Shown one piece after another: positions 1 through 59,800 of a DNA stretch of 64,000 nucleotides (position 1 is its first letter; each line of letters begins with the position of its first letter). The position numbers and the translations under genes were made by a program. Source of the DNA: Bispira polyomma (lineage: Eukaryota). The stretch covers positions 57,164,001-57,228,000 of the forward strand of contig OZ287755.1 in assembly GCA_965649765.1 (NCBI GenBank), written 5' to 3'. The notes under the pieces are model-generated. The model saw only the letters and a list, made by a program, of their open reading frames with translations, had not been told where the DNA came from and did not search any database.

Positions 1-589
1 TTCTCTAGCACAGAACCTGGTGACTCACTGGGCCATCGGCAAATTATCATAGGAAGTCCTACTTTTATTCTGTATACCTAATATGTGGTTTTACGGCCAA
101 GCTACTTGCTTCTTAACCCATACTGTCTTGTTTTGTGAATACCTGACTCGTTCATCAATGCCAGTTTTCTTTAGTCATGTATCCACTACTCTCTGTAGGT
201 GATTCGCTCTACGTAGAGTCATCAGGGAAGGCACTAGGTCATCCGTTTCCACCGTTCCAGCCAACGGCGCCGGGTACTGGAAACAGGCATTGCAGGAACG
301 GTTGTCTTTGCAGCAGGTAATAAAAATGCACTAGCAGTCGAGGTAACTCTCTGTTCAGTATGCTCAACACGCCCTTTCATAACGGACATGCATCCATTTA
401 AATGTTTTAGTTCCTGTAGAATTCTCAAATTTACCTCGGAACTACTGATACTGCTAGTATCTGCACTGTCTACATTGTCTAAATGATCTGGTCAACTTGG
501 TCTGCTAATTTATACAGACATTCTTTAATTATTGGTTTTTCATGGCTTGTGCCACAAGCCGTACAACTAAAATTTTTTCTCGGAGCCAT
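1..589 (-). mobile_element. 5' gag fragment of a third Ngaro/DIRS-like YR retrotransposon (degenerate, runs off the window start)
   Basis: Minus strand from ATG 589 reads MAPRKNFSCTACGTSHEKPIIKEC, then ILQELKHLNG..RVEHTE, LALMNESG and VKKQVAWP*NHILG..KSRTSYDNL. These are collinear with the gag proteins at 5968 and 25997 (CxxCxxxH motif, WPQNxxL..RPTYDDL). Confidence 0.8.
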
Positions 590-5967: not shown

Positions 5968-6981
5968 ATGGCTCCTAAAAAGGAGTACCAATGTAGTATG
6001 TGTATGGGTAGACACGAACGGCTTGTAGGCAGAAAGTGTCATTTTGTTATTGATGACAGCGGCGCCGATGATGTACCCACAGCTGGTCCTGCTACTGTAG
6101 AGGTATCCGACTCTTTGTCTGAGCAGATTTTATTACAACTGCAGTCGTTAAACCAGAAGATGGATAGCATGGACCAGCGTGTGAAGGTTACAGAGGCGGC
6201 GCTGGGTGTGTACCGTAAGGCATGTAGTACTTTACCTGTTGGCAAATGTAAATGTTGTTCCTAGTGTAGGCGCTAGTAATGTAGTGGAACCAGTGGTCGA
6301 GGCAGTAGTCCCTTCTCTATCATTCTTGCATTCTAACGAAAATTTCACAAGTTGATCAAAGGTTACTGCAGCTACAACAGTTGAATGAAATAACTGGGGC
6401 AGGTAAATTGAAATCCCAGCGAGGTTGCACTGATGCCCCAATTAAAAGATCTGTGGATTGGCCACAAAATTTTGTGTTGTCCGGTAGTAAAAAGGGCCGT
6501 CCGACTTATGACGATTTAACTTTGGTATAGTTTACCGTGGGATTCGTAAGGTGCGTGCAAGAGCAAAAGTCGTCGGAAATCAAGGAAGCAATGCTTGAAT
6601 ATCTAGCCAACCTCCTGGACGACGCCCACGATTTTTCGTGGGAGGCGGCCAAAGCTTCGCATGCCTTATTACTGACTAATATGGAGTTAGACCGACTTAA
6701 CTGGACTGATGTGGACAAAGTTGACCGCATACGCCGGGCACACGCTCAACGTCATATATCAAATAGTACCAACGGTAACAGTAGTTCAAAAACCAGTACT
6801 AGCAATAAGCAAAAAATCACAGGGTAAAACTCGAGGTGTCATATGTAGATTTTATCAGGAGAGCACCTACATATTTAATGCTAATCACCGAACCTCTGGG
6901 CAACTGTTTAGACACTGTTGTGAAACGTGTGACGGTGCTCATCAAAGCAAGTTGTGTCCGGAAAAGGGGTAAAAAAACTAA
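5968..6981 (+). pseudogene. Gag-like ORF1 of element 1 (frameshifts and stops)
   Basis: N-terminal CSMCMGRHERLVGRKC, core WPQNFVL..RPTYDDL..YLANLLDDAHDFSWEAAKASHA..RIRRAHAQRH, C-terminal Cys/His knuckles CRFYQ..H..CETCDGAHQSKLC. Confidence 0.85.
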
Positions 6982-9501
6982 GGGCCCACTGCAAAAGTGC
7001 AATGGGTATATCACTGTTTACCAGATTCGTGTATAATTCGAAATTCAAAGATTTTAACCTTTGTTTTAACATGTGTTTTAAACAGTATGCTTGTTCTAAC
7101 AAAAATGTACAAAGATCTTATAAAGATGTACTTGTGAAGGGTTGTGTGGTTGACAAAATTCCCAGAGAAAATTCAGCTGTGGGTGGAATTGGAGGAAATA
7201 GTGTACCTTCGAGAGTTCTGGTCAAATACAAAATATTTACAAATGTAAAAGGAGTTGTATTCGACAACAAAGGTCAAAATAAAGGTAAAAATAACACTGC
7301 ACACTATTCCAATCGGGCTGACAGGCGGGATAAACACAACAATGGCACTCGCCATAATTGTGAACGAGGTGTCAAAACCAACTCAGTAAAAGTGTCCAAG
7401 GGGCTTGACCCCACCGTTAACCAACAAGTTGTCAACAAGCCATTGTCTCAGTCAAATAGGTTTGATACTGTGGCAAAGAACAATGACTTCCAATTACCAC
7501 TGTACAATCGATATGCTGTGTTAAACATGGCTTGTGGGGAGGGGGAAGGTGTGAATAACAATGGCTATTGTGTGGGGAGTTCACATTGTAACACAGGCTC
7601 GCCTGTCAATAAAACAATGAAACCAAATGTCAAGGTGTTAACTCCCGTCAAGAAACTTGGCAAAAATAAAATCAATTTGACTGATGACAAATATGCTCTG
7701 GATATGCACAGGTCCTCCGATAAAAGGAAAAGACTTCATGACGCGAAAGCGTGTGATACTTTTAAGTTATGGGACATTCAAAATAGTGGGAAGTTTGGAT
7801 TTATTCCACTTTCGTCCTGGGGAAGCCAATTCTAGACAAATCCAATGAACAAGATTCTATGAATGTGTTTACACTGCATAAATATTTACAACGTGATGGC
7901 CGTCCTAATTATAGGGGACTTCAAATTCCTGTCGCTTCTCAACTGAATGCCTCAGTGTGGGTTGAATACTTGAGAGACTACTGGGACTGGGAAGTCCCGT
8001 TACTGATCAAATTTGGGTTTCCCCTTGACTGTACTAATGGAAACGAGTTTAAGTCTGACCTTAACAATCATTCCTCTGCAACTAGATATCCAGATCATGT
8101 TAGTCACTACTTGGAGGAAGAATGTAGGCTGGGGGCCATGTATGGTCCCTTTGAGGTGCCACCAATTTTAAAATTACATACTTCCCCCTTCATGACCCGA
8201 GATAAGTCGAGCTCAACTAACCGTTGTGTGATCATAGACCTTAGCTGGCCAGAAGGGCATTCAGTGAATGCTGCTGTGTGTCCAATTGCTTATCTAGATA
8301 AGGAATTCTTGTTAACGTATCCATCTATTGACACTATAACGTCTCAAGTCCTTGCTATGGGTAGAAGTTCACTAATTTTCAAAACTGATATTAGTCGTGC
8401 TTTTAGGCACGTGCCTATGGATCCAAAAGAACTAAATTTGCTGGGGCTTTATTGGGATGGCTATTACGTGGATGGTTCACTCCCCTTTTGCTACGAGCAC
8501 GGCTCGGCAATATTTCAGCGAGTCTCGGACAGGGTGAGATATATTATGCAAGGTGAAGGTCACCATATCATAAATTATATAGACAATCTCCTTTGCTGCT
8601 CAGTTCCGTCAAAAATATACCGAACCTACCATCGCTTACAAGCCTTGCTTGCTGAGTTAGGTCTGACCTTGAGTGACAAAAAATTGGTACCTCCTGCCAC
8701 TCGGGTTACTTGTCTCGGTATTATTATACACACTGTTGACTTTACTACCTCTATTCCAGAGGAAAAATCAATTACCATCCAAGCCATGTGTGACAATTGG
8801 GCTGGAAAAAAGTATTGTACAAAAAAGGAACTCCAGTGTTTACTGGGTTCTCTACTATATGTCTCAAAATGTGTCAAATACTCAAGATTTTTCTTGAACA
8901 GGATGCTTCATCTTCTTCAAAGTAATTACAAAGGCAAAACATTTAAAATCACCACGGAATTTCAAAAAGACCTCAATTGGTTCAGAATCTTTCTCAAAAA
9001 ATTCAATGGTGTCTCTTTTTTCCACCATAACCCCATTACAGCCTTAATAGAACTAGACGCTTGCTTGACAGGCATTGGGGGGGGGGGGGTTATGGCCAGA
9101 AAGTATATACACTGCCCATACCTGTTGATTTACAACACCTTAATATTGCCTCGTTGGAGATGTTGAATATATTTGTGGCCTTGAAATTATGGGGTACCTT
9201 GTGGCAATGTCACAAGGTCCTCATAAAATGTGATAATCAGGCTGTGGTTAGTGTCCTCACCAATGGGAGAACTAAAGATAGTATTTTAGCTTTGTATTCA
9301 CGTAATATCTTTATGCTGGCTAGCCATTATGATGTGGAGTTACAAGTTATTCATATACTAGGTGAACATAACACTACTGCAGACTTGCTTTCCAGATGGA
9401 GAAATTCCACTCAAGATCATACTTTATTAAATAGCCTTGTTGGTGCAGTCCAGTGGTGTCCAGTTACAGATCAGTATTTAGTACTTAATACAGAGATATA
9501 A
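6954..9501 (+). pseudogene. Pol of element 1: ~290-aa basic N-terminal extension, RT and RNase H
   Basis: RT motifs KTDISRAFRHVP, LPFCYEHGSAIFQR and YIDN (YIDD degenerate). RNase H LDACLTGIG..IASLEMLN..CDNQAVV..NTTADLLSR. Frameshifts at ~7817 and in the G-run at 9077-9088. Confidence 0.92.
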
Positions 9502-9546
9502 TGCTTAATGTGTTGGATGTTTCCTTGTACTCCCTCTGTGTTTCAG

Positions 9547-10500
9547 ATAAGAGTCCATTACAAAAACTACTGTATCGCAATGCAACGAAAAAACTTCATC
9601 TGGCCTTCTGTAGGTCCACTGCCAGGTCCTACAAAGCTATGTACCGTCTGTATCTGGCTTTTGCAGCCTTTATGGATTGGCCTTTAAACCAGGTGACAGT
9701 ATTTCATTTATTATGTTTTCTTGAAATGTTGCAATTTAACTCTGTAAAACCTGCCCATATGGCAAACTATGTCTGCTATCAAAGCTCAGTCGATTGTGCA
9801 TAATGTCCAAATACAGGCCTTCAGTGATCCTCGTATTACCTACTATCAGAAGGCTGTGCAAATGGCTGCCCCTTTAAATGTTAACCTTAAAAAGATTATA
9901 GACATTCCCACTTTGGCAAATATTATATCCGTGTCCCACACCACCTATATGGGCCTGATATTTAAGGCTGTCTATCTTCTAAGTTTCTTCTCTTTTCTTT
10001 GGTTATCAAATCTTGTACCACATTCAGCAGTGCAATTTTCTGCACTTAGGCACTTAGCTAGGGGTGACGTGCTCTTCCATCCAGATAAAGCTGTCATCCT
10101 TATCAAGTGGTCTAAAACCATGCAAAATAATAAGCAAATCAAACTCCTTACTATTCAACGCTTACCCAGCTCACCATTATGCCCGGTTGACTCCGTCGGG
10201 CCCCAACTTGCCTATGTTTCAAATCAAAATTGGGTACCACTGACTGATACCAGGGTACATCGTCATCTCAAGGATATATTACTCAGACTAAAACTACAAC
10301 ATTCTGGACTTACCTTCCACGCTTTCCGTCGTTCAGGTGCCACTTTTGCTTTTAACCACAACGTAAGCATTCAAAACATTCAGAACCATGGCACCTGGAC
10401 CTCAGATTGCGTGTGGAGGTATGTCACTGACACTGTTGATACTGGTCATCAAGTGGCTGATTCATTCAGACGCCATCTATCTGTGTCCCCTACCTCCTAG
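9547..10500 (+). pseudogene. Tyrosine recombinase of element 1
   Basis: FFSFLW(R)LSNL, KWSKT, LCPV, HAFRRSGAT, HGTWTSDCVWRY (H-x-x-R, H/W and Y catalytic boxes; first catalytic Arg appears mutated to Trp). One frameshift ~9770. Preceded by a strong splice acceptor. Confidence 0.92.
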
Positions 10501-11214
10501 GCTTCTACTCTATTGGGGTTTGGCTGCTTATAGTCAATTATTAATTTTAGCACATCTAAGTTTAACTGATTATGTAATGCAGTTATGTAATGTTACCTGT
10601 ATTGTAGTTAACTGGCTTAGTTAATACCACTTGCTAACGACAACAGTAGTATGTAATTCCGGAGTGTTAAAAGTAACTTCTGTTTATTCAGACTGTTAAA
10701 GTAACTTCTGTATTCTTTCTACTCAGTATGTTATGCTGAAACTGTGAAATTATTATAGCAACTTATTATAAAGGTTAATTTGCTAGACTGTAAACAGTTG
10801 TATTGGTTCTAAGTAAACGCTACAGTACAGTAGCTACCTAGTCTAAATCAAGTTTATAAAGGTTTTGGATTTAAGGTCACCTTACTTTTTAAACCTGCCC
10901 ATGGTTGGATCTTGTAATTATGAACATTAAAATTCTGTATGTAAGGTGACCTTACCTAAATTTATTTATAAATCCTAAGTAACTTAAATTGTTTTAGGGT
11001 GACCTTAAAGTGACCATGTACATAGTAGTAATCTAACACTTAGTCTAATAAATAAATAAATTTACCGCATTCTCTTGTATAACTACCTTATCTTCTGACC
11101 TCTGACCCTCTGGTCTGTTACCGGAGAAGTGAGTACAAAAATATACACAAAGAAGCCACATAAAAAATGAACCAAAACATCTAACTTCAAGATAGTATCC
11201 ACATTAACACTCAT

Positions 11215-14200
11215 GCTTTTTAGAATAAATTTAAGATTAATAGGAATGAAAGGCCTCTCCAATGTAATCTTTACAGTGTCAAACCCAAATCTGGTTAAAA
11301 GAATATTTATTTTACGTTTCACTGTAAGGTAATTCAGATAGTTAAAATGAGCAGAAAATTTTAGACAAAGTTCATCATGTCCCATTACCTTATTATTAGA
11401 TATAACATCTGCGACTATAGTTACTGCTTTCCTGTACCAGTCAGGAAAGTACAGCAGTTCATCTGAGATGACAGGGTTATACCATAACAGACTTGTCATT
11501 AGATCATTTGAATTACAGATTTTTAGGTTGGATGACATAGAAATCCATCCCTCAAAGACATCCTGCCAAAAGGGATTTGACAGTTTTTCTTTGCAGCGTT
11601 TTTTCTTACCTAACCACACTACTTGTGTTTTTTCGGTATTTACCCGTAACCCTGATAATGATCCAAAAACCTCTAGAGTATTTAAAGCAGCCTGCAACGA
11701 TTGAGGTTCCATCTAATATCAATGTTGTGTCATCGGCAAACTGACTGAGCTTGATCTCTGTCTCACCACAAAAAATACCCTTAATATTTGTATTATTTAA
11801 CATAAGTAATGTCAATATCTGAGCAGCAAGAATAAATAGGTAAGGAGAGATCGGGTCACCCTGACTACAGCCACGTTCAATACTGATAAATTTGGATAAG
11901 AATCCACATTGGATTATAGTAACTTTGGTGTTTGTATTAAATAATTTTATCCAATTAATGAAAGACTGTCTAAATCCGAAAAATTCTAAAGTTTTATATA
12001 TAAAGGTCCATGAAAGAGAATCAAATGCTTTTTCAAAATCAATAAGAACTAACATTCCGGGAAGGTTACGTTTTTCAGTAAAATTCATTATGTCAAAAAC
12101 AAGTCGAGTGCACTCGCCAATATACCTTCCAGGAACAAAGCCATTTTGGGTTTTATCAATAAGATTATCAAGATGTGGCTTAAGTCTATTGGCTATTACA
12201 GCAGGTGCAAATTTGTAAAGTACTGATAACATTGACAAAGGACGCCAGTTCTTGATTATTTCACGGTTTTTCTCCTTCTTAGGTAAGCATGTTATTACAC
12301 ATTGTCGCAATGTCAGAGGTAGCTTTCCTTTCTCAATGCTATCATTTAATGCTTTTAAAATACAGGATTTTAAAGATTTCCAGAATACTTTGTAAAATTC
12401 AGATGGAAAACCATCGATTCCTGGAGTTTTATGATGTTTCATATGCTTAAGTGCATTCCCTAATTCATTTACTGTCAAGAGTCCTTCTAATGTATTAGCT
12501 TTGCTTATATTTAATTTATTGATCAAGTACTTTCCTAACATGTCGGTGAAATGATAATCCTGTAAATTTTGATCATTTGCTTTAAAAAGTGCTCTATAAT
12601 ACTGAGATACTGAGTCTAATATTTTATTTTGGGATGTTAAATAACTGCCATCTGGTGGTTTAAGGCGTTCAATAGTTTTGCTTAGGTAGTTTTTAGTTTC
12701 TAATGAACAAAAGTATTTTGATGGTTTTTCACCTTCAATATTCCACTGAGAGCGTGATCTAACCCATTGACCTTTCATTCTTTCACCTCTTATTTCTTCT
12801 AATTCCGACCTTTTGACTTCAAGTACATCAGATTCGTTTACATTTAATTCAAACTCCAATTTTTCAATTTCGGCTTTTAATAAAGTTTAATGTAATAAAT
12901 TAATATATATTTTCTTTTTTTTTTTTTAATATTACTTGCATATTTATCAGTCTCACCTCTTAATCTTAGTAGCATTGCTTCTAAGAAAATTTCGCTATCG
13001 ATTGTAAGGACTACATCTGGGAAAGAATCAACACATATATATCTTAAGTCATAAACTGGAATTGCATATTTGATATATTCATCCCTAATCGCCTCATTTA
13101 TTAAATTCAAATCTAGAAGATCATGTAAGTATCTTGTGTTGAATTTCCAGATTCCTTTTCCTATTTTAAATTTTGTCAAATTCAGCCTTAGATACAGAAA
13201 CGAATGATCAGATTTGTAGCTAGGTTTGATGTCTGTAGCATCAATAAGGTCAGATAAATTTTCAGAGGTCAGAATGCAATCCAAACGGGCCTGCTTAAGA
13301 CGATTACGCCGACGCCAAGTGTACCTTGTTTTATTTGGGTTTAAATATCTGTAAAGGTCTATCAATCCATATTCTTTAATAATACCAAGCACAATTAATC
13401 TTGCTCTAGGGTTGTTCAAATTTGAATAAGTATAACTGTCTAGGTTAGGATTCAGGGTTAAATTCAGATCACCACATATTACTAAATGATCCTGTTCATT
13501 GTCACGGACATTCCTTTTAACATTCTGATAAAAGTCAATGTCATCAGTGGTTTTTCCATATATATTTATAATTCTGAATTTTATGTCCTCGACTTCAAGA
13601 TCCATAACTAATAGATTACCATCATTTTTTTTCTGTTTTTGTAACCTTATTTTTACTAATAAGGATTGCTACCCCCCGCGCATTGCTATGGCGACAATTT
13701 AAATACACTTCCCCATCCCAGTAATTTTTGACAACACTTTCCATTAAGTCTATTAAATGGGTGTCCTGGAGACAGGCTATATTTATTCTAGCTTCTTTTA
13801 TATAATTTCAAATATCATATCATTTTTCTTTGTTATTCAAGCCCCGACAGTTTGCCGACAACAGAGATATTTGATTACCATTAATTAGATTCATAATCAG
13901 TTGTAAACTACTAAATGTATTCCTTTCTGTACGTTTAACCAAACCTGGGACAAATTGACATCTTAACGTTTGAGTGTAATAACTTACTTTACTTTCAGGT
14001 AAAGTCCTAACAGTGGCAACAAATTGACAACAAACATTTAGGTGCACATGAAATCCAAAAAATAAAATAAAAAAAAAAACATACCAAAAAAATAATATAA
14101 ACAGGCTAAAGAAAAATAAAAAAAAAAAAAAAAAAAAAAATCCCAAATTACACACCAAAAATAAAAAAATAAAATTACAAAATGGACAGAAACGTAAACG

Positions 14201-20105: not shown

Positions 20106-20720
20106 ACAGTGCCCCGGGGTACCAAAGATATGAATTAAGTTATATGGACATAACAATTAAAGTGTAACACCATAAAAGACTTGCGGTCAAATTTATTTAG
20201 GTCTACGGTTTTTTATATAGTTTCGGCCAATAAGGAGGGGGGCGTAAGGTCACCTTAAAGTCTGCTAGCTTGAACGAAGGTGTGTAAGGTCACCCTAAAC
20301 CAAAGAAGAATGAGGGTGCCGTATGGTCACCTTAACTTTAAGTTTAAGAATTGCTAAAGGTGCCATGAGGTCACCTTAAATTAATTACTAAGAGTTGAGG
20401 TCAGACAACGCTGACCTTAAATTAGTTTGAATGTTGAAATAAAGGTCAGACAATGCTGACCTTAAGTTTTAGTTAGGTAGGTCTCCTGTAAGGTGACCCT
20501 ACCTTGAGTTTGAGATAATTGTAGATTTTGAGGGTATACCATAAAGTATGTAATAAGTTCAAGCTAGACTAAGACTGTAAAAGAGTGCATTATGCACCCA
20601 GCAGTTAGGTTGACCTTATGCCCCCGGACAGTCATTGCTCTGCACTGTCCACATTTAGACTTTATTATGTATTAATACATATTTTATTATATTTACAGCT
20701 GAGACATAAAGAGCAGTCCA
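20106..20720 (-). repeat. B2 direct repeat of element 2 (copy of B1, 21530-22166)
   Basis: Near-identical ~615/637-bp copies; B1 has a small extra insertion near 21965. Confidence 0.95.
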
Positions 20721-21365
20721 GTCCACTAACAAATGTAGAGAATAAAATATTTAAAGAGTTCTTGACGTAAAGTTCATAAAATACTAGAAGAATAAAAGCA
20801 CATCAAGGAGACTTCCTGTTACTAGCGAGGTAACTGATTTTCGCAGTGACGCCGTCACTCCACTGCATCATAGTTCATGTTATAAGGCAAAGCCAGGTGA
20901 ATGGTATTAACGGCCATTCTCAAAGTTCACTAACCAGCAAAACTCACACTAGCTCGCAGCAACTGTCCTACATGCCGAGCAATACGGCCCCTTACCTAGT
21001 TACACAAATCTCACGTGAGAAGCTGGTACAAACATGAAAACATAAATTAAACACAGATTTTAGAGCAAGGCTCTTCCATCCACTCTAACATAGCAAGACA
21101 TCCAGATGTAAAAACCATCCCAGAACGACCAGCCCAGACGGTCTAAAGTTCTCAAGGTCGCAACACTGGCCTGCTGGTGAACGTTCGCAGAACGACATGC
21201 ATAACCGGCAAAGCCATCTGGGGAAAGGACGTCAAGCAACGAGGATCCAGATAACATTAGCAGGATCATCATGGAGATGGAAGCGCCAAGTGACAACATT
21301 GTACTATTCCTCCAGATAACTCCTGAAACTAAGAAAACATGATTAACAAGGGAGCGGAGGGTGGG

Positions 21366-21531
21366 TGTTACAAAATAATGTTCCGTGGTCGGCTGTAGTT
21401 TTCAAAAGGAAGTTATATTCAGACCGCACAGCTTTATATAGGGAGAGCCGCAGTCAGTGAAGCGTTTACAAAAACAAATAGACTGTTACCCCAGCACTGA
21501 AAGCACCAATGCTGGGGGCGCTGCCTTATAC
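21366..21531 (-). repeat. A2 direct repeat of element 2 (copy of A1, 26783-26948)
   Basis: 166-bp near-identical copies containing a CCCCAGC..GCTGGGG hairpin and a TATA-like TATATAAAG. Confidence 0.95.
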
Positions 21532-22184
21532 AGTGCCCCGGGGCACCAAAGATATGAATTAAGTTATATGGACTTAACAATTAAAGTGTAACACCATAAA
21601 AGACTTGCGGTCAAATTTATTTAGGTCTACGTTTTTTTATATACAGTTTCGGCCAATAAGGAGGGGGGTGTAAGGTCACCTCAAAGTCTGCTAGCTTGAA
21701 CGAAGGTGTTTAAGATCACCCTAAACCAAAGAAGAATGAGGGTGCCGTATGGTCACCTTAACTTTAAGTTTAAGAATTACTAAAGGTGCCATGAGGTCAC
21801 CTTAAATTAATTACTAAGAGTTGAGGTCAGACAACGCTGACCTTAAATTAGTTTGAATGTTGAAATAGAGGTCAGACAATGCTGACCTTAAGTTTTAGTT
21901 AGGTAGGTCTCCTGTAAGGTGACCCTACCTTGAGTTTGAGATAATTGTAGATTTTGAGGGTATGCCACTTGAGTTTCAGATGGCATACCATAAAGTATGT
22001 AATAAGTTCAAGCTAGACTAAGACTGTAAAAGAGTGCATTATGCACCCAGCAGTTAGGTTGACCTTATGCCCCCGGACAGTCATTGCTCTGCACTGTCCA
22101 CATTTAGTTATGGATTAATATATTATATTTTATTATATTTACAGCTCAGACATAAAGAGCAGTCCACCAAACCCAAGACCCTAG

Positions 22185-22521: not shown

Positions 22522-22555
22522 CTGGAATCACACAAATATAGACATGTAATTAGTA

Positions 22556-24997
22556 TTATATTGTGGTATCAACTTGCAGCAGGGTGGCATCTGCTCGTAA
22601 CCATTTAACTGGGCCTGCCAATTCTACCAATAGTTGCTCATTGTTGGTGGTTTTATGCCAACGTGACAACAAATCTGCAATTTTGTTTTTTACACCCATA
22701 ATATGAATAACCCTGTTTCTATGTCAAATCTGCTGGCCCACATGTAAATATTACAGGTATAACAGGCCAAAACTGGATCCTGTGTCCGACCACTTCCTAA
22801 GACACTGACCACCGCCTGGTTGTCGCCCTTAAACAACACTTTTTTACCTTGCCAAACACTGGACCACAATTTGAGGGCTACAAGGATGTTAATCATCTCT
22901 AGTTCCGCAATATTATCCTGAGTCATATTCCAGGGAATATCTAGTTTATACATTTCATTCCCACAGATGCCCCCCATGCCAGTTAGACAGGCATCTAGTT
23001 CAACCTGAGCATGTACGGGTGTATACAAGAAAAAACTCACCCCGTGATACTGTTTAACAAATTTAGTGAACCAATTAAGGTCCTGCTTAAAGTCACTAGT
23101 GACACAAAAGGTTACTTTGCCATTGTTATTACGCAGTAATTGCAACATTCTGTTGAGAAATACTCTAGCATACTTGATGCATTTAGCTATATATAAGAGT
23201 GAACCTAGTAATGACTGCAATTCTTTCTTAGTACAGTGAGTTTTGTCTTGCCAGGATACACATTTTTCTCTGATTTCACACAATTTTTCATCAGGTATTG
23301 AGTTAGTAAATTTCTCATTGTCAATAAGGATGTCCAGACACACTACCTGTGTGCTGGGAGCCACCAAGTTTTTACTGCTAACGGTGAGACCGAGTTCATG
23401 CAGTAAAGCCTGCAACCAGTTATAGCTAGAGAAAATTTTACTGGGCAAATTAACCGCAAGAAAATCATCAATGTAACTGTGGATATTATCGTCAGAAAAT
23501 CTTTGAAAAATTGTTGATCCATTCTGGTAGCCGAAGGGTAGGCACTTATCTACATAAAACCCTTCCATTTTAAACCAAACAGATTAATGTCACTGGGTCA
23601 ATAGGGACGTGCCGGAATGCCCGACGTACGTCTACCTTATAGATATGGCAACCTCTGCCCAACTTAGTGACCTCACTGGTAATGTCATCAATGGAAGGAT
23701 ACGAGAGGAGAAATTCTGTATTTAAATAAGAAGTGGGAGAAACCCCCGCATTAACAGATTGGCCATGTGGCCAACTCAAGTCAACTATTACACGCCTATT
23801 GGCCGAGCTCGATTTATTCCGAGTCATCATTGGCGAGCAATGTAAGTTTCTGATTGGGGGGGTATTAAAAGGCCCTAAAATGGCACCAAATTGACATTCC
23901 TCATTTAAATACGTTTCGACATGTTCAGGAAAACAATTAGCTGAACTGTGGTTAGCATTCTGTGACTGACTTATGTTATCGCGACACACATCCAAAGGGA
24001 AGCCATATTTTACCAACAAGGGAAGCTGCCAGTCCCAGTACTGGTGGAGATATTTTTCCCACTTATCAGCATTCAGTTGTGACTCGACAGCCAACTGAAG
24101 TCCCTGAAAGTTATGTCTATCATCTTTCCGTAGTTTGTTGTGCATTTCGAAAACGCTAAGTCCATGGTTATTACCCACATCCCAGATTTGCACCCAAGTG
24201 TGGACAAAGGTGCAAAGCCATATTCAACTGCAGTTTGAGTTTTCCATTGAATGTGTGTAGCGTCTGAGCGAGCCTTAACCAACAACTCTCGTTTGTTGCG
24301 TTTTTGCTTCAACTCAAGGGAATATTTGTCCCCACAGTCCTTGGTGACACCCGAGTTACATTATTTACATTCGCTTTATGCGACGTAGAGCCAACCTTGG
24401 CTTTTTGCTTATTTACAATATTAACACTGTTTGTTTCCCCTTTTTCCTCCCCATTGCTGCCGGGTTCAACAATGGTTTGGCTGAGGGGGAGAAATCTGTT
24501 GTGTGATACAAGTTCACCCCCACCTCTAGTGTGGGTTTATATTGGGTGACCCTTTTATTCACACCAGTATGGGGGGCCCTTTGTCTCGACTCACTACATT
24601 CATCTTTGTTCCGCGTGGCCGAGACAAAGGGGGCGACCCCATCCATCCGAACGTTCACACCCTTAGTGCCTTCAATGCTGACATTTTTACATTTTTTGAT
24701 ACTCTTAATTGGTTTGAACTTCAGTACATTTTTGACAAATTTTGTAGTGCATTGAGGAACCTTGGTGTTACTTTCTGCGACTTGTTTAGCAATATTGTCA
24801 TTGTAAAACATTTTACTTCCTGCCGAAACAGCATTACTGTATGTACAGCAAGCCTTTGTGCCCCTATTATACATGAGCATTCTATTTACAACAGGTTTAC
24901 CAAACAAATGCTGTTCCTGAAATTTGGAATTATAAATAACTCTGTCCGAATATTTCAACGCAGTGGGCCTTAGTTTTTTAAACCCTTTTTGGTACAC
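22556..24997 (-). pseudogene. Pol (N-terminal extension, RT, RNase H) of element 2
   Basis: KVDVRRAFRHVP, LPFGYQNGSTIFQR, YIDD, LDACLTGMGG, DNQAVV, ADLLSRW; ends LQVDTTI* at 22556. Several frameshifts. Confidence 0.92.
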
Positions 24998-25997
24998 GTA
25001 CTGTTCTTATGGTTACCCCCGCAGGTCTCACACACGTTTGAAAAACGCGTTTCCTGTCTTATGACTAGTAGGGAACTTGCATGACCCATCCTGAAATAAT
25101 TTACAATTTGCATTTTGCTTGGCAAAGCCACTACCTTTACTAGTACCACGGCCACTACTGGTATGAACCACACTATTACTTGACGTGCCTCTGTGCATGG
25201 GCCCTTCTCAAACGGTCTAATTTTTCCACGTCAGACCACGAAAGCTTGTCCGTTTCCATGTGCGTCATGATAACTGCATGACAAGCCTTCGCCACCTCCC
25301 ACGAGAAGTCTTCCGCATCTTCCATGAGGTTGGACATATAATCCAGCATTGTTTCTCTAACCGAGTTACACTTCTCCTCCTGAATTATTCTAGTAAAACC
25401 GCATACCCACTGGGTCATGGACAGATCATCGTACGTGGGTCTAGCACGAAAACTACCAGTGAGCACATGGTTTTGGGGCCATTCAACAACACGTTTAATT
25501 ACTACGTCCACCCCGCCCCCCCCCCTTTGAGATTTGAGCTTACCCTGACTGGGAGCTTCATACGTTTTAGTTCTGCTAGCCGTGATTCGACCTGACTCTG
25601 AATTTGCGTGTTGTTTCGTAGGAAATCAACACTAGGTACCACATTCTGAACATTTTCTTCTATGATGGGTCAACTAATGCGGTTGTATTAGTTACAGAAT
25701 TATCACTAGAATTCAAATTACTGGCCTGTTTTTTGTTTCCACTGCTAATGTTGCCTCGGCGAGTTGCACATGCTGGTCCATTTTTTCCATCATCTGGCTC
25801 ATGGACTGGAGCTGAAGCAGAATTTGATTCGATACCGTGTTCAGCCCCACGTCCTGAGCCATACCAGTATCTGTGTGCTCCTCGCTTTGGTCATCATCAG
25901 CATCAGAAGTGGAAGAAACCTGAGATAGCAAACACCCAGCCCCAACCGGCCTAGCATGTTTCCCCAGACATTTAGAACAGTTTACAACCGCAGGCAT
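24970..25997 (-). pseudogene. Gag-like ORF1 of element 2
   Basis: CSKCLGKHARPVGAGC, GKLKSQRGG, WPQNHVL..RPTYDDL, RLRRAHAQRH, CETCGGNHKNSTC..LKN*. Confidence 0.88.
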
Positions 25998-26780: not shown

Positions 26781-27210
26781 ATTGTTACAAAATAATGTTC
26801 CGTGGTCGGCTGTAGTTTTCAAAAGGAAGTTATATTCAGACCGCACAGCTTTGTATAGGGAGAGCCGCAGTCAGTGACGCGTTTACAAAAACAAATAGAC
26901 TGTTACCCCAGCACTGAAAGTACCAACGCTGGGGGCGCTGCCTTATACTTGGTGTCATCTAATCCACGAATACGGTAGGAGAGACCTTTTATTCTACCTG
27001 GGTTGGTGTTTCTCATCACAGCTCCTGCAGTTTCCACATCATCAAAGAACAGAGACTTCCGCTAAAGGTAGAACTGCTCTACACACAGATACCTTCTTTT
27101 TCCATCTAGAAAAGGGCTTGGATGGTGTTTACTTAAAACACTGTCTTGTCCAAAGAAGAAGGTTTAGTTGCACTGTGGATTGTATCTTTCCCCCTTCATT
27201 GTCCACCGCT

Positions 27211-40887: not shown

Positions 40888-42171
40888 AGTGCAGTCCCAG
40901 CAAGGACCTCTAAACAGGATTACAACCTTGTCTCCCCCGTATCTCAAAAACTCTCATTATTAGATCTGCGTGCAGCTTTAAAGCAAGAACTAGTCCCTCT
41001 GCGTTCAGAAATTGATGGTATTAAACTGAAACTTGATATAGTAGAAAAAATATTAAGCGGTGACATTGAGGATGTAAAAAATTGCATTCTTAAGGTTACT
41101 GAAAGACTTGATTCTGTGAATGATTCCTTCAAAGCTAAGATAGAATTTCTTGAAGAAGAAAATAAGGATCTCCACATGAAACAGATACAGGCTACCACTA
41201 ACATAAATGAACTGACAAATAGACTGATAAATCTTGAGTACCACATGAGGCGAGATAACTTAAAATTTTTAAATATAAATCTTCCCAACTCAACACCCCA
41301 TCATCCAGAAGACTGTGAGTCAATCATCCTTCACATATGCCAAGACCATGGAATTGTCCTAGAAAGAAGGGACATTGTCAGAGCTCATCGTGTTGGTCCT
41401 ACTGCTAACAACAAGAGGGCTATCATAGTGAAGCTTAACCATTTCAAGGATAAGATGAAAATTCTCAAATTAAAAAGTGCTTTTCGTGAAAATGGAATAC
41501 AAATAGTTGAGGACTATCCACCAGAAGTTGTTAGTCGCCGAAAGACCTTCAGATCAGTCCTTCAAACTGCCTTTGCGTCCAATGGAAAATATAAGGCAAA
41601 GTTAGAATTTGACAAGCTTGTTTTAAATGGAAGACATTACAGTGTTGATGAACTTGACAAACTCCCCGTAGACCTTCAGCCGCAATATTTAGCAACTGTT
41701 TCCAAAAACAACATCACTGCCTTTTTCACAGACCAGTCACCACGGTCAAATCATCACCCTCGCAAATTTGAAGTTCAAAATCAACAATTCTCATCAGTAG
41801 AACAGTTTTTCATGTATCAGAAGGCCTCTCACTTTCATGATGACAGCACAGCTAATGACATACTGCGTAGCTCAGACCCAAAAAGAGCGAAGTTCCTTGG
41901 AAAACATGTCAACAATTTTGACATGTCCACATGGCTGCCGGTATGTGACAAATACATGAAAACTGGCCTCACAGCAAAATTTGACCAAAATCCTCAGCTA
42001 GCAAAGTTTCTGAAGGACACCGGATCTACACATATTGTGGAAGCCAATCCATACGACCTATATTGGGGTGCAGGCCTTTCCTTGACCAATGAAGACATTT
42101 GGCACATCCCAAGGTGGAAAGGTAAAAATACCCTTGGTTTACTGTTAGAAGAACTACGTAAAAATATGTGA
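40888..42171 (+). CDS. L1 ORF1p (coiled coil, RRM, CTD) fused to a C-terminal NADAR/YbiA-like domain (~41716-42168)
   Basis: Frame open from ~40888. LEYHMRRDNLKF, IVRAHRVG, AIIVKL and EDYPPEV are L1 ORF1p motifs. These are followed by FF....SNHHP, SVEQFFMYQKA, PKRAKFLGKHV, AKFDQNPQL, VEANPYDLYWGAG and GKNTLGLLLEELR (NADAR motifs). Start codon not resolved. Confidence 0.9.
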   Translation, partial: SAVPARTSKQDYNLVSPVSQKLSLLDLRAALKQELVPLRSEIDGIKLKLDIVEKILSGDIEDVKNCILKVTERLDSVNDSFKAKIEFLEEENKDLHMKQIQATTNINELTNRLINLEYHMRRDNLKFLNINLPNSTPHHPEDCESIILHICQDHGIVLERRDIVRAHRVGPTANNKRAIIVKLNHFKDKMKILKLKSAFRENGIQIVEDYPPEVVSRRKTFRSVLQTAFASNGKYKAKLEFDKLVLNGRHYSVDELDKLPVDLQPQYLATVSKNNITAFFTDQSPRSNHHPRKFEVQNQQFSSVEQFFMYQKASHFHDDSTANDILRSSDPKRAKFLGKHVNNFDMSTWLPVCDKYMKTGLTAKFDQNPQLAKFLKDTGSTHIVEANPYDLYWGAGLSLTNEDIWHIPRWKGKNTLGLLLEELRKNM

Positions 42172-42179
42172 GTGCTAAT

Positions 42180-43020
42180 TTTATTAGCTAGTGCTGTTAT
42201 AAACATTATACTGGTAATATAGTGCTAATTCAAACATTTTACTGACAATATAGTGCTAGTACAAACTTTTTACTGACTATGTAGTGCTTCTATAAACATT
42301 TCTTTGACTAATGTTGCGCAAATATTTTATTGTCTATTGCTTACCTAAAACCCCTTGTACTTGTAAACTTATTAAGTGGACAAAATATGTTCTTTTGTTG
42401 ATTATCTATTACTCATAGCCTTTGTGCATACTACAAACAAAATTAATTCATAGTATTCTTATGGAGCAGTTATGTTTTTTTACTCAATGAATTGTGTATA
42501 TATTTTACAATAATTATGATTATTGACACTAATTTTTTAGTTACTTTTTTGGACCAACAATTTATATGAGATGACATTTATCTGTGATGTTAATCAGTAA
42601 TAGAATACTGCATGTTTTGGGGGTTTTCTAAAAACTACTATAAGCTTAAGTAGATATTACTTAATGAAGTATATACTTCAACAGAGTATTGTAACCTTAT
42701 TCAGTAATTGTTTAGCTAACATAGCTGATCCTTGATCCCAGCTATTCTATAGGTAGCTCAACCAGTATGACCTGCTATATGTTTCATTTATGTTTGCTTT
42801 TTTTGTACAGTTTTGTTCTAGTTTGTTTAAAACCTACTTCTTATTCTCCATTTGTATGTATATTCTTTGATATATTTTCTCTGTTTAAAAGGAGTTACAA
42901 CATGTTCTTCATTTCAATACCTCACATTATCAGTAATAATGTTCAGTTCTTCATTTCAGTAACTCACACTAGCAGTAATAATGTTCAGTTCTTCATTTCA
43001 ATACCCCACAATTGCAGTGG
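42180..43020 (+). repeat. Short tandem repeats in the inter-ORF spacer
   Basis: ~30-bp unit TAGTGCT..AAACATT..ACTG about 4 times (42185-42310); ~42-bp unit GTTCTTCATTTCA..CACA..CAGTAATAATGTTCA about 3 times (42900-43020). Confidence 0.7.
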
Positions 43021-43082
43021 TAATATTAATAATTCTTTCTTTACAGAAAGCAGATATGGAGCTCTTACGTGTTTAAGTAAAA

Positions 43083-46000
43083 ATGGTATTGGATAACATA
43101 ATTAGGGTATCATCAGCAAATGTTCAGGGTATCAGGAATAAAGAAAAGAGGCATGATGTAATAAGTTACTTAATGAACAGTAATACCAATATCCTCTGTC
43201 TACAGGATACACATTTGTTACCTTCAGACAAAAAATATCTCAAGTCATCATTTGACTTTGAATTTTTTTTGCATGGTACTAAGACCAATTCTCGTGGGGT
43301 TTTAGTAGCTTTTAAAAACAATTTTGAATATAAAATAAAACATGTAGAAAATGACACAGATGGAAATCTGCTTTTAATAGACATACAACTGAACAGTATG
43401 TCAGTAAGATTAATAAATATTTATGCACCAAATAATGATAGCCCTGAATTCTTTCATAAAATAAGAGACTATGTTGTAGATTCAACTGAAACTTATATTT
43501 TGCTATGTGGTGATTTTAATTTGGTCCTGAACCCAATATTAGACAGCTATAACTATGTTAACATCAATAACCCACAATCAAGGACAGCCATATTAGAGCT
43601 AATGTCAACTCACAATTTAAATGATGCTTTTAGACAATTAAACCCAGTCACTAAAAGATATACTTGGCGTCGACGTAACCCGATTAAACAAGCACGATTA
43701 GATTATTTCATTGTTTTAAATACCCTAACTGATATAGTTCACAGTTGTGTTATCAAACCTGGTTATAGGAGTGACCACTCTGTTCTAGATATTAACATTA
43801 TTATTGATAAATTTGAAAGAGGTAAGGGAATATGGCGTCTCAATTGTAGTCACTTGAAAAATTCTAATTACATTGATACAATAAATGGAGCAATTAATGA
43901 AGTGAAAATTCAGTATGCATTACCAATATACAATATAGAAAACATTAGCCTTGTAAATGACTCCGATATTCAATTTACTATTCCTGATAGTACTTTTTTA
44001 GAGATGTTACTTTTGAAAATTAGAGGTGAAACTATCAAGTTTTCTTCTCAGTTAAAGAAGAAGAATAACCTTAATGAAAACAAATTACAGCAAGAAATAG
44101 AATTTATTGAAAATAACAATGACCCCCAACAACATGATGTGCTCACAGGAAAGAAACATGAATTGGAAACTTTGAGAGAATTGAAAAATTCCGGTCACTT
44201 AATAAGGTCAAGAGTGCAAAATTTATTGTACAATGAAAAACCAACAAGATATTTTTGCACCTTAGAGAAAAAAAACTATGTTGACAAAACGATTAGAAAA
44301 CTTACTGCAGCTAATGGAGAGTTGATAACCTCTCAGAAAGAGATATTAAATCATGTGAAAGAGTTTTATGCCAACGTTTATCGCAACAGAGATAATTCAT
44401 TACAAGAAATAGATCTTGATAACCTGATTGCAAATAACCATGCAAATATTTTGACAAAAACTGAATCTGATTCAATAAATGGTTTGGTTACAATAGAAGA
44501 ATTAGGTAAAGCCCTTAAACAGATGAAAAACAATAACAATATAATGTTTTACAATATAATGGTTTACCAGCAGACTTCTATAAGGTTTTCTGGTGTAAAT
44601 TAAAATTCTTTATCTTACGTGCAATAAATGAGAGCTATGACAAGGAAATTATGCCTTTTAGTCTGCGACAAGTTGTAATAAATTGCATTCCAAAAGGAGA
44701 CAAATCCAGAGATCAATTAAAAAACTGGCGCCCAATATCATTGACAAGTGTTTGTATAAATTAGCAACTAGTGTTATAGCTTCAAGAATAAAATGAGTTT
44801 TGTCTAAGCTGATATCAACAACACAAACCGGTTTTATTGAGGGTAGATTTATTGGAGAAACAACTCGCCTAGTATATGATATAATGGAATACACAGAAAT
44901 TAATAATATAGATGGGTTATTGATGCTAATTGACTTTGAAAAGGCTTTTGATTCGATCTCGTGGAAATTTATGTATTTGGTTTTAAAAAAATTTGGTTTT
45001 GGTTACGATTTAATAAAATGGGTTAAACTATTTAACACTGAAATTAAAGCCTTTGTTCTTCAAGTAGGAGTACTTTTCAAATTTTTCAACATAGAAAGAG
45101 GCTGCAAACAAGGTGATCCTTTGGCACCTTATCTGTTCATACTATGTAGTCAAGTATTATATTTATTAATCCAACACGATTCTAAGATTAAAGGTATTAC
45201 CATAAAAGATCAAGAATTTAAAATAACCCAATTTGCTGATGATACCGCCTTAATGTTGGATGGTTCTGAGAGTTCCTTATCTGCTACTTTAAATGTTTTA
45301 GAAATATTTGGTACAATGTCAGGTTTAAAGATGAACACAACAAAATCAAAGATGATATGGATTGGAAGGAAAAAAACATTGTAGAGATAAACTGCATTCA
45401 AAATTTTATTTTGAGTGGAATTGTGAAACGTTTTCATTGCTTGGACTAGAGTTTGACATTGATTTAGGAAAGATACCTGACATTAATTATGCTAAAGCCC
45501 TAGCCAAGATTAAAAAATTGATATCAGCCTGGAATAAACGGACACTAACACCTCTTGGAAAAGTAACAGTTATAAAAACATTGATTTTATCAAAATTGGA
45601 TCATTTATTTATGGCTATCTCTCTACCAAATAGGGATTTCTATAAACACATAAATGCACTCCTTTATAACTTCATATGAGAAGGAAAACCAGAGAAAATA
45701 TCTCGTGTACAGATGAATCAAAAATATGTTGACGGTGGATTAAAAATGATAAATATTGAACATTTTGTAAAGGCCCTAAAGAGTACATGGATTAGAAGAC
45801 TGATTATATCACAAAATTCACAGTGGTCCAAACTTTTGAGTTGATACATTTGACCATTGCAAAGATTACCCATTTTGGTCATTACTGGTTGAAAATATTG
45901 ACATCAAGGACTCAAAATCATTTTTGGCAGGACATTTTCCAAATTGTTTCTTCTCATTCTCTAGACAGTACTTGTCAAAGTGCTCAGCATATCTTGCGAA

Positions 46001-46911
46001 CTCCAATATGGTACAATGAGACTATTAGTAAAACAAATCTCTTTAAGTCGAGATGGTATCAAAAAGGAATTACAGTTGTAGGAGACCTTGTACAGAATGG
46101 CAGTATGTTAAGTAAAGAGATGTTGGAGTCATTTTATAACCTTCCTGTCATTAATTTTATTGAATACTACCAAGTAAAAGCCGATCTGCTTCAGTTTATA
46201 AAGAAATCAAACGTGAATTTATCTTCTGATCTTGAAAGACCCTTTATTCCAGTACATTTATCAATACTGCTTAAAAGTAAAAAGGGTTGCAAAGATATAT
46301 ATAACGCTATGAATAAATCTTACGTAGAAAGCAAATACAAATTAAAATGGAATAAAGATGTAAATATGAATATTGATACTACCACTTGGAAAAGAATATT
46401 TTATATATGTTTCAACACTGTAAAAGATAATAAATTCATTTGGTATCAATATAAAATTTTGCATCGCATACTTGGAACAAGAAAACCTTTATTCAAAATG
46501 TCTATTTCTGAATCAGAGTCATGCAGATTGTGCAACTCTAACACTGAAACCCTGCTTCATTTGTTCACGCAATGCCAGCATGTAAAAAAAATATGGAAAG
46601 ACTTACAACTATGGATAAAAATGTCATTAAACACTGATCTGAATATTACCTCAGAAGAAATATTATTCGGTTACTTATTGAAAGATGCAATGTTCCTTCC
46701 AATTAATATCATATTCTTTGTAACCAAATACTATATCTACTCCTGTACCAGAAATAGCACATCTTTAAACTTTGATATCTTAAGAAAAAAACTTACATAT
46801 ATGTATGAATGTGAATATTATCTATATAAAGAGAACAATCAAGAAAATTTGTTTAATGAGGTATGGTCACGATTTTCTAATATGTTTGACTACAATCCAG
46901 TAAGTGATTAA
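43083..46911 (+). pseudogene. L1 ORF2: APE endonuclease, RT and C-terminal CCHC knuckle (disrupted)
   Basis: SANVQG, LQDTH, GDFN, SDH; LIDFEKAFD, QGDPL, QFADD; CRLC...ETLLHLFTQC. Frameshifts or stops near 44550, 44750-44795, 45370, 45677 and 45830. Confidence 0.95.
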
Positions 46912-58411: not shown

Positions 58412-59800
58412 CTAATCACTGATACTGTTTGTTTTCTCTGTCATTGATATACTACAAAAGAAGCTGCCGTCTGGATGTTCCCCAAACTCCGGACTGTGCG
58501 TGCAAGGCTCTGACTGATGCCTGACTATTTTAGGCAACTGCACTGTATGGTTCACCTTTCTGAAAGAAACCCCTGTAATGTCTACAGATGAACGTCTTCT
58601 GAGGTAAGAATCTACCTCCCTCCTCACCAGTTGACTGCGAAAGACATAGAGGCAAGGATTGAAAATGCAGCTGGTCAGCGCGACATGAATCGCACTGGTA
58701 CCCATCCAATCCTGTATGAGCTCTGGGTTTGAGACCTTAATTGTCAGCACAAAGAAAAACGGAATCCAGCTCAATGTAAAGGTGGATACACAGAGAAATC
58801 CAGTGATGGCAGCTTTAAAGTCATCCTTATGCAGCATGGGATTTCTCTTTAAACTAGTTAATTTTAGTTTGTGATAGACTTTTTCAGCAAGTGTAGGATA
58901 ATAGGCTGTGAAAGATCTTTTTTCTGAACAGGGGCTCAATCGTATGAGCAGCTGTTTGGGTTGATCAGGATTGAGGCTGTTCCGACGGGCATTTGCTGTG
59001 GTTCTTTTGGCTGCACCAAAGATCTTTAGGTACACCACCAACATACACCCCAAAGGCACGATAAAGAATACGACAGAGAAGAGATACACATACACTCTAG
59101 TAAACAGATCAGTCTGGTTCAAGTCCACCAAACATATACTCAACTGCTGGTCATAATCAATATGTCGAGTGAAAAGTAAAAGTGAAAAGCTTAAGCACAG
59201 GGCCCACATAAACACTATGCACTTGTATGTCTTTTTCGTAGTCAGTGAACGGGAGTACCTCAACGGCCTAGCAATGGCCTGGTATCGATCCATGGATATA
59301 AAGAGCAACGTCATCGAGGACACACAAATGAGTGACGTCACAACACAGCCGGTGACGTCACAGAACAGTTTCCCGCCGAAGTCCCACTGACGTTTAAGTG
59401 CCCCGTTGAGTAGCATTGGCCCAGTCACCAGTGTCAGAATGAAGTTACACACGGCCAAGTGTAGCACCAGTTTGTTGGAGACGGAGAGCAAGACTGGCCG
59501 AGTGGAGAATATTACAAATACAACCAGGTTTGACACTAGGCTGGCTAATAGTAGCAAAGATGTGAGGGTGAGTTTGAAGGCAGTCACAGAGGTCACCGGC
59601 ATCACAGAGGTCACACCGGGCGTCTGCTGGGTGATCGTGTTCATGCTGTCTGTGTTTTCTAGGATATCCCCAAACTGGTGAGTTTCTTCCGTGCCCAGCA
59701 TGGTATCAACCTCAGTTCCTGCATCGTCGACTGAGAGTCGTAAGTAATAATGCTCCAAATCTAAACCCTCCATTTTTTTGAGTTTGCAACAATCACACAT
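58412..59800 (-). CDS. Intronless class A (rhodopsin-like) GPCR, orphan GPR161-like
   Basis: 462-aa intact ORF with seven hydrophobic segments, TM1 SN, ICL1/TM2 LLSVSNKLVLHLAVCN (resembles GPR161 LLTLSNKFVFSLTLSN, Asn at 2.50), WxFG..C, DRY, SWIPFF, NPCLY. Start could be Met1 or Met10. Confidence 0.88.
   Translation of the reverse strand: MCDCCKLKKMEGLDLEHYYLRLSVDDAGTEVDTMLGTEETHQFGDILENTDSMNTITQQTPGVTSVMPVTSVTAFKLTLTSLLLLASLVSNLVVFVIFSTRPVLLSVSNKLVLHLAVCNFILTLVTGPMLLNGALKRQWDFGGKLFCDVTGCVVTSLICVSSMTLLFISMDRYQAIARPLRYSRSLTTKKTYKCIVFMWALCLSFSLLLFTRHIDYDQQLSICLVDLNQTDLFTRVYVYLFSVVFFIVPLGCMLVVYLKIFGAAKRTTANARRNSLNPDQPKQLLIRLSPCSEKRSFTAYYPTLAEKVYHKLKLTSLKRNPMLHKDDFKAAITGFLCVSTFTLSWIPFFFVLTIKVSNPELIQDWMGTSAIHVALTSCIFNPCLYVFRSQLVRREVDSYLRRRSSVDITGVSFRKVNHTVQLPKIVRHQSEPCTHSPEFGEHPDGSFFCSISMTEKTNSISD

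What the first reader, a model, noticed from the sequence alone, without database searches (positions are those of the whole stretch)
6403..9546. Predicted splicing-out of RT/RNase H to express the recombinase as a Gag-N/YR fusion, conserved across divergent elements
Element 1: donor GCAG|GTAAAT (6403) inside the Gly codon of the gag GKLKSQRG motif, and acceptor TTTCCTTGTACTCCCTCTGTGTTTCAG| (9546) 45 nt after the pol stop. Both are phase 1, giving in-frame ..ITGA-D-KSPLQKLL.. Element 2 (minus strand): donor CAGG|GTAAGC (25543) in the same Gly codon, and acceptor TACTAAT..TATTTGTGTGATTCCAG| (22522), again phase 1 and in frame (..SQ-G-MHPVVSLL..). The third fragment has TCAG|GTATTC (142) at the homologous Gly. 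YR similarity between elements 1 and 2 begins right after the AG. Inference: a subgenomic spliced mRNA, analogous to retroviral env, with a ~3.0-3.1 kb intron, attaching the N-terminal Zn-finger/coiled coil of Gag to YR. Described DIRS/Ngaro elements usually have YR overlapping or following pol; I do not know this arrangement being reported.
Basis: partly seen in the sequence, partly recalled or inferred. Interest (0 to 1): 0.75.

Follow-up and report, generated by a model that had tools for sequence, protein, structure and literature searches.

The report
Retrotransposon splices recombinase onto Gag
A large family of jumping genes in this animal genome, and distant relatives elsewhere, keep matching splice signals that would cut out the reverse-transcriptase gene and join the front of the structural Gag protein to a start-less recombinase, likely explaining how this enzyme is made, though no RNA was available to show it.

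Summary
The three window elements are decayed copies of a large Ngaro-like tyrosine-recombinase (YR) retrotransposon family.

Donor: GT sits in the gag Gly codon in 50 of 50 copies where the motif was found (of 60; 48 GGT, background about 35%).

Acceptor: a phase-1 AG sits at a fixed place in 54 of 55 anchored copies while the encoded residues vary.

Purifying selection starts at that AG (pN/pS 0.91 before, 0.46 after). The Cre-like fold also starts there, 30 codons before the first conserved Met. The pol-to-YR frame offset varies (0, 1 or 2), so the ribosomal frameshift proposed in print cannot be general.

The signals persist in relatives only 27-38% identical. RefSeq models from two mussel species join Gag to YR at the same kind of Gly junction.

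Not shown: no RNA run was listed, and I found no intron-less genomic copy.

Verdict: YR is very likely made as a spliced Gag-N/YR fusion (about 0.83), and I found no published report of this. The scan has reported the same idea before, in this genome and in others.

The parts
5968..6402 (+). Element 1, predicted exon-1 coding part (Gag N-terminal arm: CxxC..H..C knuckle, long helix, second helix); broken by a stop and a frameshift in this copy
6400..6408 (+). Element 1 5' splice site, CAG|GTAAAT, phase 1 in the gag Gly codon
6403..9546 (+). Element 1 predicted intron (3,144 nt): gag C-terminal half plus all of pol (RT/RNase H)
6972..6981 (+). AAAAAAC slippery site plus gag stop (predicted -1 gag-pol frameshift; a hairpin follows in 10 of 10 intact relatives examined)
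9520..9546 (+). Element 1 pyrimidine tract and 3' splice site, 45 nt after the pol stop
9547..10500 (+). Element 1 YR exon (Cre-like fold in the intact relative L037; frameshifted in this copy)
9690..9698 (+). Second donor-like site CAG|GTGA, 146 nt after the acceptor; in 17 of 17 lineages of this clade and 0 of 26 more distant loci
10318..10413 (+). Inverted repeat pairing the HxxRRSGA and HGTW codons of YR; clade-specific; no covariation support obtained
26783..26948 (-). Element 2 repeat A1
25544..25997 (-). Element 2 predicted exon-1 coding part (broken)
25538..25546 (-). Element 2 5' splice site, AGG|GTAAGC, phase 1
22522..25543 (-). Element 2 predicted intron (3,022 nt)
22522..22546 (-). 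Element 2 3' splice site, 34 nt after the pol stop
   Evidence: same spacing in its relative L052
22171..22521 (-). Element 2 YR exon remnant with a large internal deletion
20106..22166 (-). Element 2 3' repeats: B1 (22166-21530), A2 (21531-21366), unique spacer, B2 (20720-20106)
1..589 (-). Fragment 3: gag 5' half of a third lineage (L134/L136-like), donor TCAG|GT at 142; cut by the window edge

Best explanation
These Ngaro-like retrotransposons likely make their tyrosine recombinase from a spliced RNA that would drop the second half of gag and all of pol and join the first roughly 140-200 codons of Gag, in frame, to a recombinase that has no conserved start codon. Shown in sequence: conserved phase-1 donor and acceptor, the onset of selection and of the Cre-like fold at the acceptor, and variable pol-YR frame and spacing. 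Inferred: unspliced RNA gives Gag and, by a -1 frameshift, Gag-Pol, and serves as genome; spliced RNA gives a fusion of about 467 aa (L037: 138 + 1 + 328 residues). More speculative: the shared helical Gag arm co-assembles the recombinase into the Gag particle with the cDNA and may steer target choice. A weak donor, and in this clade a downstream donor-like site that would define the YR exon, would set the spliced-to-unspliced ratio.
For: Donor: GT in 50 of 50 copies with the motif (of 60), 48 GGT, A at -2 in 49, although the preceding residue varies (A, G, Q, K, S, P, R). Background GGT is 24 of 69 Gly codons in gag and 146 of 440 in pol. Acceptor: AG 56 nt before the YR A-F motif in 54 of 55 anchored copies, over ten different residue pairs. 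Amino-acid identity is 0.15 before and 0.51 after the AG, and pN/pS is 0.91 versus 0.46, in 17 lineages. The YR model from the acceptor aligns to Cre from model residue 5 to Cre residue 21 (Z 19.0, rmsd 3.6, 274 aligned), and its first two helices have pLDDT 86-96. The donor follows Gag helix 117-136, in a lower-confidence linker before the C-terminal bundle. More distant genome families: a phase-1 G|GT follows the same helix in 16 of 20 loci (1 lost, 3 not anchored), and in L141. External metagenome loci at 27-38% YR identity: donor in 3 of 3 with a full gag; best-scoring YAG is phase 1 in 13 of 15 anchored. RefSeq models XP_076108317.1 and XP_063434478.1 share their N-terminus with unspliced first-ORF proteins P0273/P0274 up to a Gly, and enter YR exactly where the unspliced ORF P0272 has Ile-Gly after a pyrimidine-type run. 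P0251 (coral) matches the Gag-N profile at E 4.6e-5, and no fusion model matches the Gag-C profile.
Against: No junction was seen in RNA. Five exact-match pattern searches for spliced-type junctions plus one for the L134 group found no intron-less genomic copy (positive control 57 unspliced-type sites), and none of 73 gag-YR pairs in held loci lie closer than 2,639 nt. An earlier scan note's claim of such a copy was therefore not reproduced. A Met at YR codon 31 is kept in 16 of 17 lineages of this clade. Other database models join RT/RNase H exons to YR (P0244, P0253, P0259, P0260), so gene predictors can create such joins, and the RNA support of the RefSeq models is not visible. Donors are modest (+5 is A in 37 of 50). 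Lineages share ancestry, so the p-values overstate independence. None of 89 Gag-N hits among the 50%-identity representatives carries YR.
Confidence: 0.83

Rival explanations
1. YR is translated from its own ATG (the Met at codon 31, or a lineage-specific upstream ATG) on a subgenomic RNA, possibly spliced to a non-coding leader.
For: Met31 is present in 16 of 17 lineages; some lineages have Met at codons 1-16 or upstream.
Against: Codons 1-28 are under purifying selection like the rest (pN/pS 0.46 versus 0.41) and form helices that align with Cre from residue 21. That Met is absent in distant relatives such as L092, L093, L095 and L097. This model does not explain the fixed phase of the AG or the fixed GGT in gag.
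Confidence: 0.06
2. The acceptor is real, but it is joined mainly to another donor (5' leader or inside pol), and the gag GGT is kept for another reason.
For: Some database models join pol exons to the YR acceptor. Other phase-1 GT sites with similar U1 match exist in some gags.
Against: Only the Gly after the second helix recurs at one aligned place across all lineages, including external ones. The mussel RefSeq models use a gag Gly.
Confidence: 0.06
3. YR is made by ribosomal frameshift or readthrough from pol as a Gag-Pol-YR polyprotein, as Poulter and Butler 2015 proposed for Ngaro (quoted in PMC13003380).
For: In 5 of 14 lineages YR is in frame with pol behind one stop. The elements do show a frameshift signal at gag-pol.
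Against: The offset is 0, 1 or 2 in 5, 5 and 4 of 14 lineages, with 22-79 nt spacers, and spacers reach hundreds of nt in external loci. The spacer evolves neutrally (pN/pS 0.91) and the YR frame is open for only 5-37 codons upstream of the acceptor.
Confidence: 0.04
4. The sites are chance products of codon bias and AT-rich spacers.
For: GGT is the commonest Gly codon (33-35%), and control windows are somewhat enriched for phase-1 YAG (63 of 138).
Against: Column controls, 40 of 44 versus the control share (p 3e-10, lineages not independent), and persistence at 27-38% identity.
Confidence: 0.01

Closest known systems
Ngaro-like YR retrotransposons (order DIRS; passages read in PMC8547959, PMC9210276, PMC4157794, PMC3783388)
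   Same: gag, RT/RNase H and YR on one strand; no methyltransferase; split direct repeats A1...B1-A2-B2.
   Different: YR does not overlap pol and carries splice signals. The mechanism in print is a probable ribosomal frameshift (Poulter and Butler 2015, seen only as quoted in PMC13003380). A unique 570-790 nt spacer lies between A2 and B2.
C. elegans Cer1 CERV (PMC10309623, passages read)
   Same: A spliced RNA removes pol and joins Gag-frame N-terminal exons (with a leucine zipper) to the ORF behind pol.
   Different: Cer1 is an LTR element with DDE integrase inside pol, and CERV is an RNA-export factor from five exons. Here the spliced partner is the integrating enzyme itself, with one intron.
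Simple retroviral env mRNA (MLV/RSV layout, described in PMC10309623)
   Same: Unspliced RNA gives Gag and Pol; a singly spliced RNA gives the 3' gene.
   Different: The product is the recombinase and keeps about 140-200 Gag residues rather than a short leader.
DIRS-like and PAT-like elements (passages in PMC3266345, PMC4157794)
   Same: YR integration and related RT.
   Different: They carry an MT domain, and DIRS-like elements have ITR/ICR ends and often long pol/YR overlaps; none of these is seen here.
Cre recombinase (PDB 1pvp, 1ma7)
   Same: The fold of the YR exon product over nearly its whole length (Z about 19).
   Different: About 11% identity; the predicted Gag arm takes the place of Cre's first 20 or so residues.

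Membership tests
Ngaro-like | Split direct repeats A1-ORFs-B1-A2-B2 | tested here: met
   Window element 2, L037 and L134 show A1, B1, A2 and B2 at 93-100% identity, with a spacer between A2 and B2. Several other copies showed only the A pair or no repeats within the stretch fetched.
Ngaro-like | No methyltransferase domain after RNase H | tested here: met
   Intact L037 pol gives only RVT_1, RVT_3 and RT_RNaseH hits and ends about 30 residues after the last one.
Ngaro-like | YR downstream of RT/RH on the same strand | tested here: met
Ngaro-like | RT/RH groups with reference Ngaro elements | not tested
   No named reference element was in hand; the tree (quick method) holds only session loci.
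Ngaro-like | Short -1 overlap of YR with the pol end (Poulter and Butler description, as quoted) | tested here: not met
   YR conservation begins 22-79 nt after the pol stop in any of three frames. PMC3783388 also says the fungal Ngaro YR may be in frame or shifted, so this feature is not strictly defining.
DIRS-like | Inverted terminal repeats with ICR, and an MT domain | tested here: not met
   No inverted pairs in L037 or L034; no MT hit.
PAT-like | MT domain | tested here: not met

The most novel reading that the evidence does not exclude
Splicing of Gag-N onto YR is the ancestral, general way animal Ngaro elements make their integrating enzyme. The shared helical Gag arm is the tag that loads the recombinase into the particle and steers it to targets, which would explain why loss of ORF1 changes Ngaro target choice in Cafeteria (PMC8547959). 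In this clade a silent downstream donor defines the YR exon and tunes the spliced-to-unspliced balance, as in complex retroviruses.
Probability: 0.4. Interest if true: 0.78.

Novelty: new variant of a known kind. Interest (0 to 1): 0.65.

Why it matters
How YR retrotransposons express their recombinase has rested on a guess (a ribosomal frameshift). A conserved splice gives a precise prediction that one RT-PCR can test. It would mean the annotated YR ORFs of many Ngaro families are not the real proteins: biochemical or engineering work would need the Gag-N/YR fusion. It offers a route for delivering the enzyme to the cDNA and for target choice. It shows a retrovirus-like three-way expression plan (unspliced, frameshifted, spliced) in an element without LTRs or integrase. 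It also explains a class of 460-600 aa 'xerD homolog' gene models in animal RefSeq annotations as retrotransposon products.

Tried and rejected
RNA: no RNA holder was listed. The three runs of unrecorded kind were laid on L037 and L141. They behave like genomic DNA contigs. No donor-to-acceptor joint was among the 15 of 18 and 15 of 37 joints displayed; this is not evidence either way.

Intron-less genomic copies: none in six pattern searches (exact matches only, several families not covered) or in held loci. A hit listed with a 482-aa open frame was an ordinary unspliced copy. A DNA search returned only the 40 best full-length matches, so it could not show truncated ones.

Protein searches: the top 120 of 284 YR homologues were all 221-344 aa. 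The 89 Gag-N hits had no YR match. No relatives were found in the viral or prokaryote collections, nor close relatives of the P0238 and P0240 N-termini in G000.

Structure: Gag had no Foldseek match at E 0.001 or better.

Other tests: a conserved branch point was not supported. The YR hairpin is nearly invariant, so I did not run a covariation count.

Literature: nine searches and term look-ups in 14 papers found no report of spliced Gag-YR. Only passages were read and no supplements. [quoted passage not shown]

Full report
OBSERVATION. Element 1 has its donor at 6403 and its acceptor ending at 9546, 45 nt after the pol stop. Element 2 (minus strand) has them at 25543 and 22522. Fragment 3 has a donor at 142, at the Gly homologous to that of L134/L136. 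All three copies are broken, so the test had to be made on the family.

WHAT THE ELEMENTS ARE. The window lies in an animal-sized genome of 1.035 Gb that holds many relatives; the searches list 150 and 145 matches as lower bounds. I fetched 60 close copies, 24 more, one further region and 26 metagenome loci. Intact copies such as L037 have a 331-aa gag, an overlapping 878-codon pol frame (RVT_1, RNase H, no methyltransferase hit) and a YR frame. The ends are split direct repeats A1...B1-A2-spacer-B2. This fits Ngaro-like elements as described in passages of PMC8547959, PMC9210276 and PMC4157794; placement on a tree with named references was not tested. Gag ends in AAAAAAC, a stop and a hairpin in 10 of 10 copies examined, so Gag-Pol is probably made by a -1 frameshift (inferred).

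DONOR. The motif was found in 50 of 60 copies. All 50 have GT at codon positions 2-3, 48 have GGT, and 49 have A at -2 although the preceding residue varies. Gly codons elsewhere are GGT in 24 of 69 (gag) and 146 of 440 (pol) cases. Among 111 near-invariant four-fold columns in 18 lineage representatives, the mean top-codon share is 0.47. Only five reach 0.94: this Gly and four YR sites discussed below. In the Gag model the site follows helix 117-136, in a lower-confidence linker before the C-terminal bundle. In 20 more distant genome loci a phase-1 G|GT follows the same helix in 16; one has lost it and three could not be anchored. It is also present in 3 of 3 external loci with a whole gag and in L141.

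ACCEPTOR. AG lies exactly 56 nt before the YR A-F motif in 54 of 55 anchored copies, over ten different residue pairs, so the constraint is on nucleotides. The spacer from the pol stop is 22-79 nt, and the YR frame is offset 0, 1 or 2 in 5, 5 and 4 of the 14 lineages where the stop was located. Across 17 lineages, amino-acid identity is 0.15 in the ten codons before the AG and 0.51 in the 28 after; pN/pS is 0.91 versus 0.46. A blind score of YAG sites picked phase 1 in 40 of 44 loci (31 of them at the aligned place; 7 of 51 loci dropped for lack of an anchor), against 63 of 138 control windows. Shared ancestry weakens the p-value. The YR model starting at the acceptor has mean pLDDT 88.6 and aligns with Cre from model residue 5 to Cre residue 21 (Z 19.0). 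The acceptor therefore sits at the very start of the fold, and initiation at the Met of codon 31 (kept in 16 of 17 lineages, a point for the rival) would remove the first helix and half of the second.

INDEPENDENT ANNOTATION. A search for long YR proteins gave 61 hits, of which I read 23. Six RefSeq models (acorn worm, mussel, two scallops, amphioxus, coral), plus a second mussel species in one cluster, carry a Gag-like N-terminal arm fused to YR with no RT. The mussel case is exact. The models share their N-terminus with unspliced first-ORF proteins up to a Gly, and they enter YR at the Gly that follows a pyrimidine-type run in the unspliced YR ORF. Against over-reading this: only one of these models matches my Gag-N profile significantly (P0251, E 4.6e-5); four other models join pol-derived exons to YR; and RNA support for any model is not visible.

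WHAT WAS NOT FOUND. No RNA holder was listed. No intron-less copy appeared in six pattern searches, with 57 sites in the positive control, nor in held loci.

MECHANISM. Shown: paired phase-1 signals, selection and fold boundaries, variable pol-YR frame. Inferred (0.83): a single splice gives Gag-N/YR of about 467 aa, while unspliced RNA gives Gag and Gag-Pol and is the genome. Speculative: the two helices shared by all exon-1 sequences (the Zn knuckle is missing in L117, L118 and L141) let the fusion co-assemble with Gag, and may affect targeting. This would agree with the ORF1 effect on target choice reported in PMC8547959 (passages read).

Two further nucleotide constraints are limited to the clade of the two window elements. 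One is a donor-like MAG|GTGA 145-146 nt into the YR exon, in 17 of 17 lineages and 0 of 26 other loci. It may act in exon definition, by analogy with HIV-1 D2 (recalled, untested). The other is a stem of about 17 bp pairing the HxxR and HGTW codons, in all 14 in-genome lineages matched.

COMPARISON AND NOVELTY. The published expectation for Ngaro YR is a programmed frameshift in a short -1 overlap (Poulter and Butler 2015, seen only as quoted in PMC13003380). PMC3783388 notes that YR may be in frame or shifted, without giving a mechanism. The nearest working analogue is Cer1 CERV, a spliced Gag-N fusion to the ORF behind pol (PMC10309623, passages), but that product is not the integrating enzyme. 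Nine literature searches found no report of spliced Gag-YR; the primary Ngaro papers and Repbase were not read, and no supplements were read. The scan has noted the same idea in this genome and in other genomes; those notes were treated as leads, not support.

VERDICT. A real feature, and very likely a splice: a new expression variant in a known element class. Interest 0.65.

Noticed in passing
window 9690-9698 (+); 17 lineage representatives: Second donor-like MAG|GTGA 145-146 nt after the acceptor, in 17 of 17 lineages of this clade and 0 of 26 distant loci. It could be an exon-definition site or a real second donor.
   Followed up: partly
window 10318-10413 (+): Stem of about 17 bp pairing the codons of the catalytic HxxR and HGTW motifs, nearly invariant in the clade and retained in internally deleted element 2. 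Possible replication or packaging signal.
   Followed up: partly
window 6972-6981 (+) and 24970-24979 (-): AAAAAAC slippery site, stop and downstream hairpin at the gag end, conserved in 10 of 10 intact relatives examined.
   Followed up: partly
L093:1561-1565, L110:1316-1320, L129, L141:3690-3694: In some distant lineages gag and pol are in the same frame, split by one stop, suggesting readthrough instead of frameshift.
   Followed up: no
L065, L070: gag and pol lie in one open frame (1221 and 1105 codons) in single copies, probably through an indel.
   Followed up: no
window 20721-21365; L037:6821-7390; L134:7543-8332 (oriented): Unique 570-790 nt spacer between repeats A2 and B2, conserved among L036, L037 and L041, so part of the element.
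   Followed up: partly
G000:C8:46520000-46538000 (L141, L142): Head-to-tail array of a distant family (about 40% identity), unit 5,583 nt, with the same donor and acceptor signature; its Gag lacks the N-terminal Zn knuckle.
   Followed up: partly
window 11083-13668 (-): LINE-like endonuclease/RT fragments abut the 3' end of element 1, which lacks A2 and B2.
   Followed up: no
window 40888-46911 (+): A LINE-like element whose first ORF ends in a region resembling a NADAR/YbiA domain (recalled, untested).
   Followed up: no
window 49026-49553 (+): Fragment resembling a Harbinger/PIF transposase (recalled, untested).
   Followed up: no
window 58412-59812 (-): Single open frame of 466 codons resembling a rhodopsin-family GPCR (recalled, untested).
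   Followed up: no
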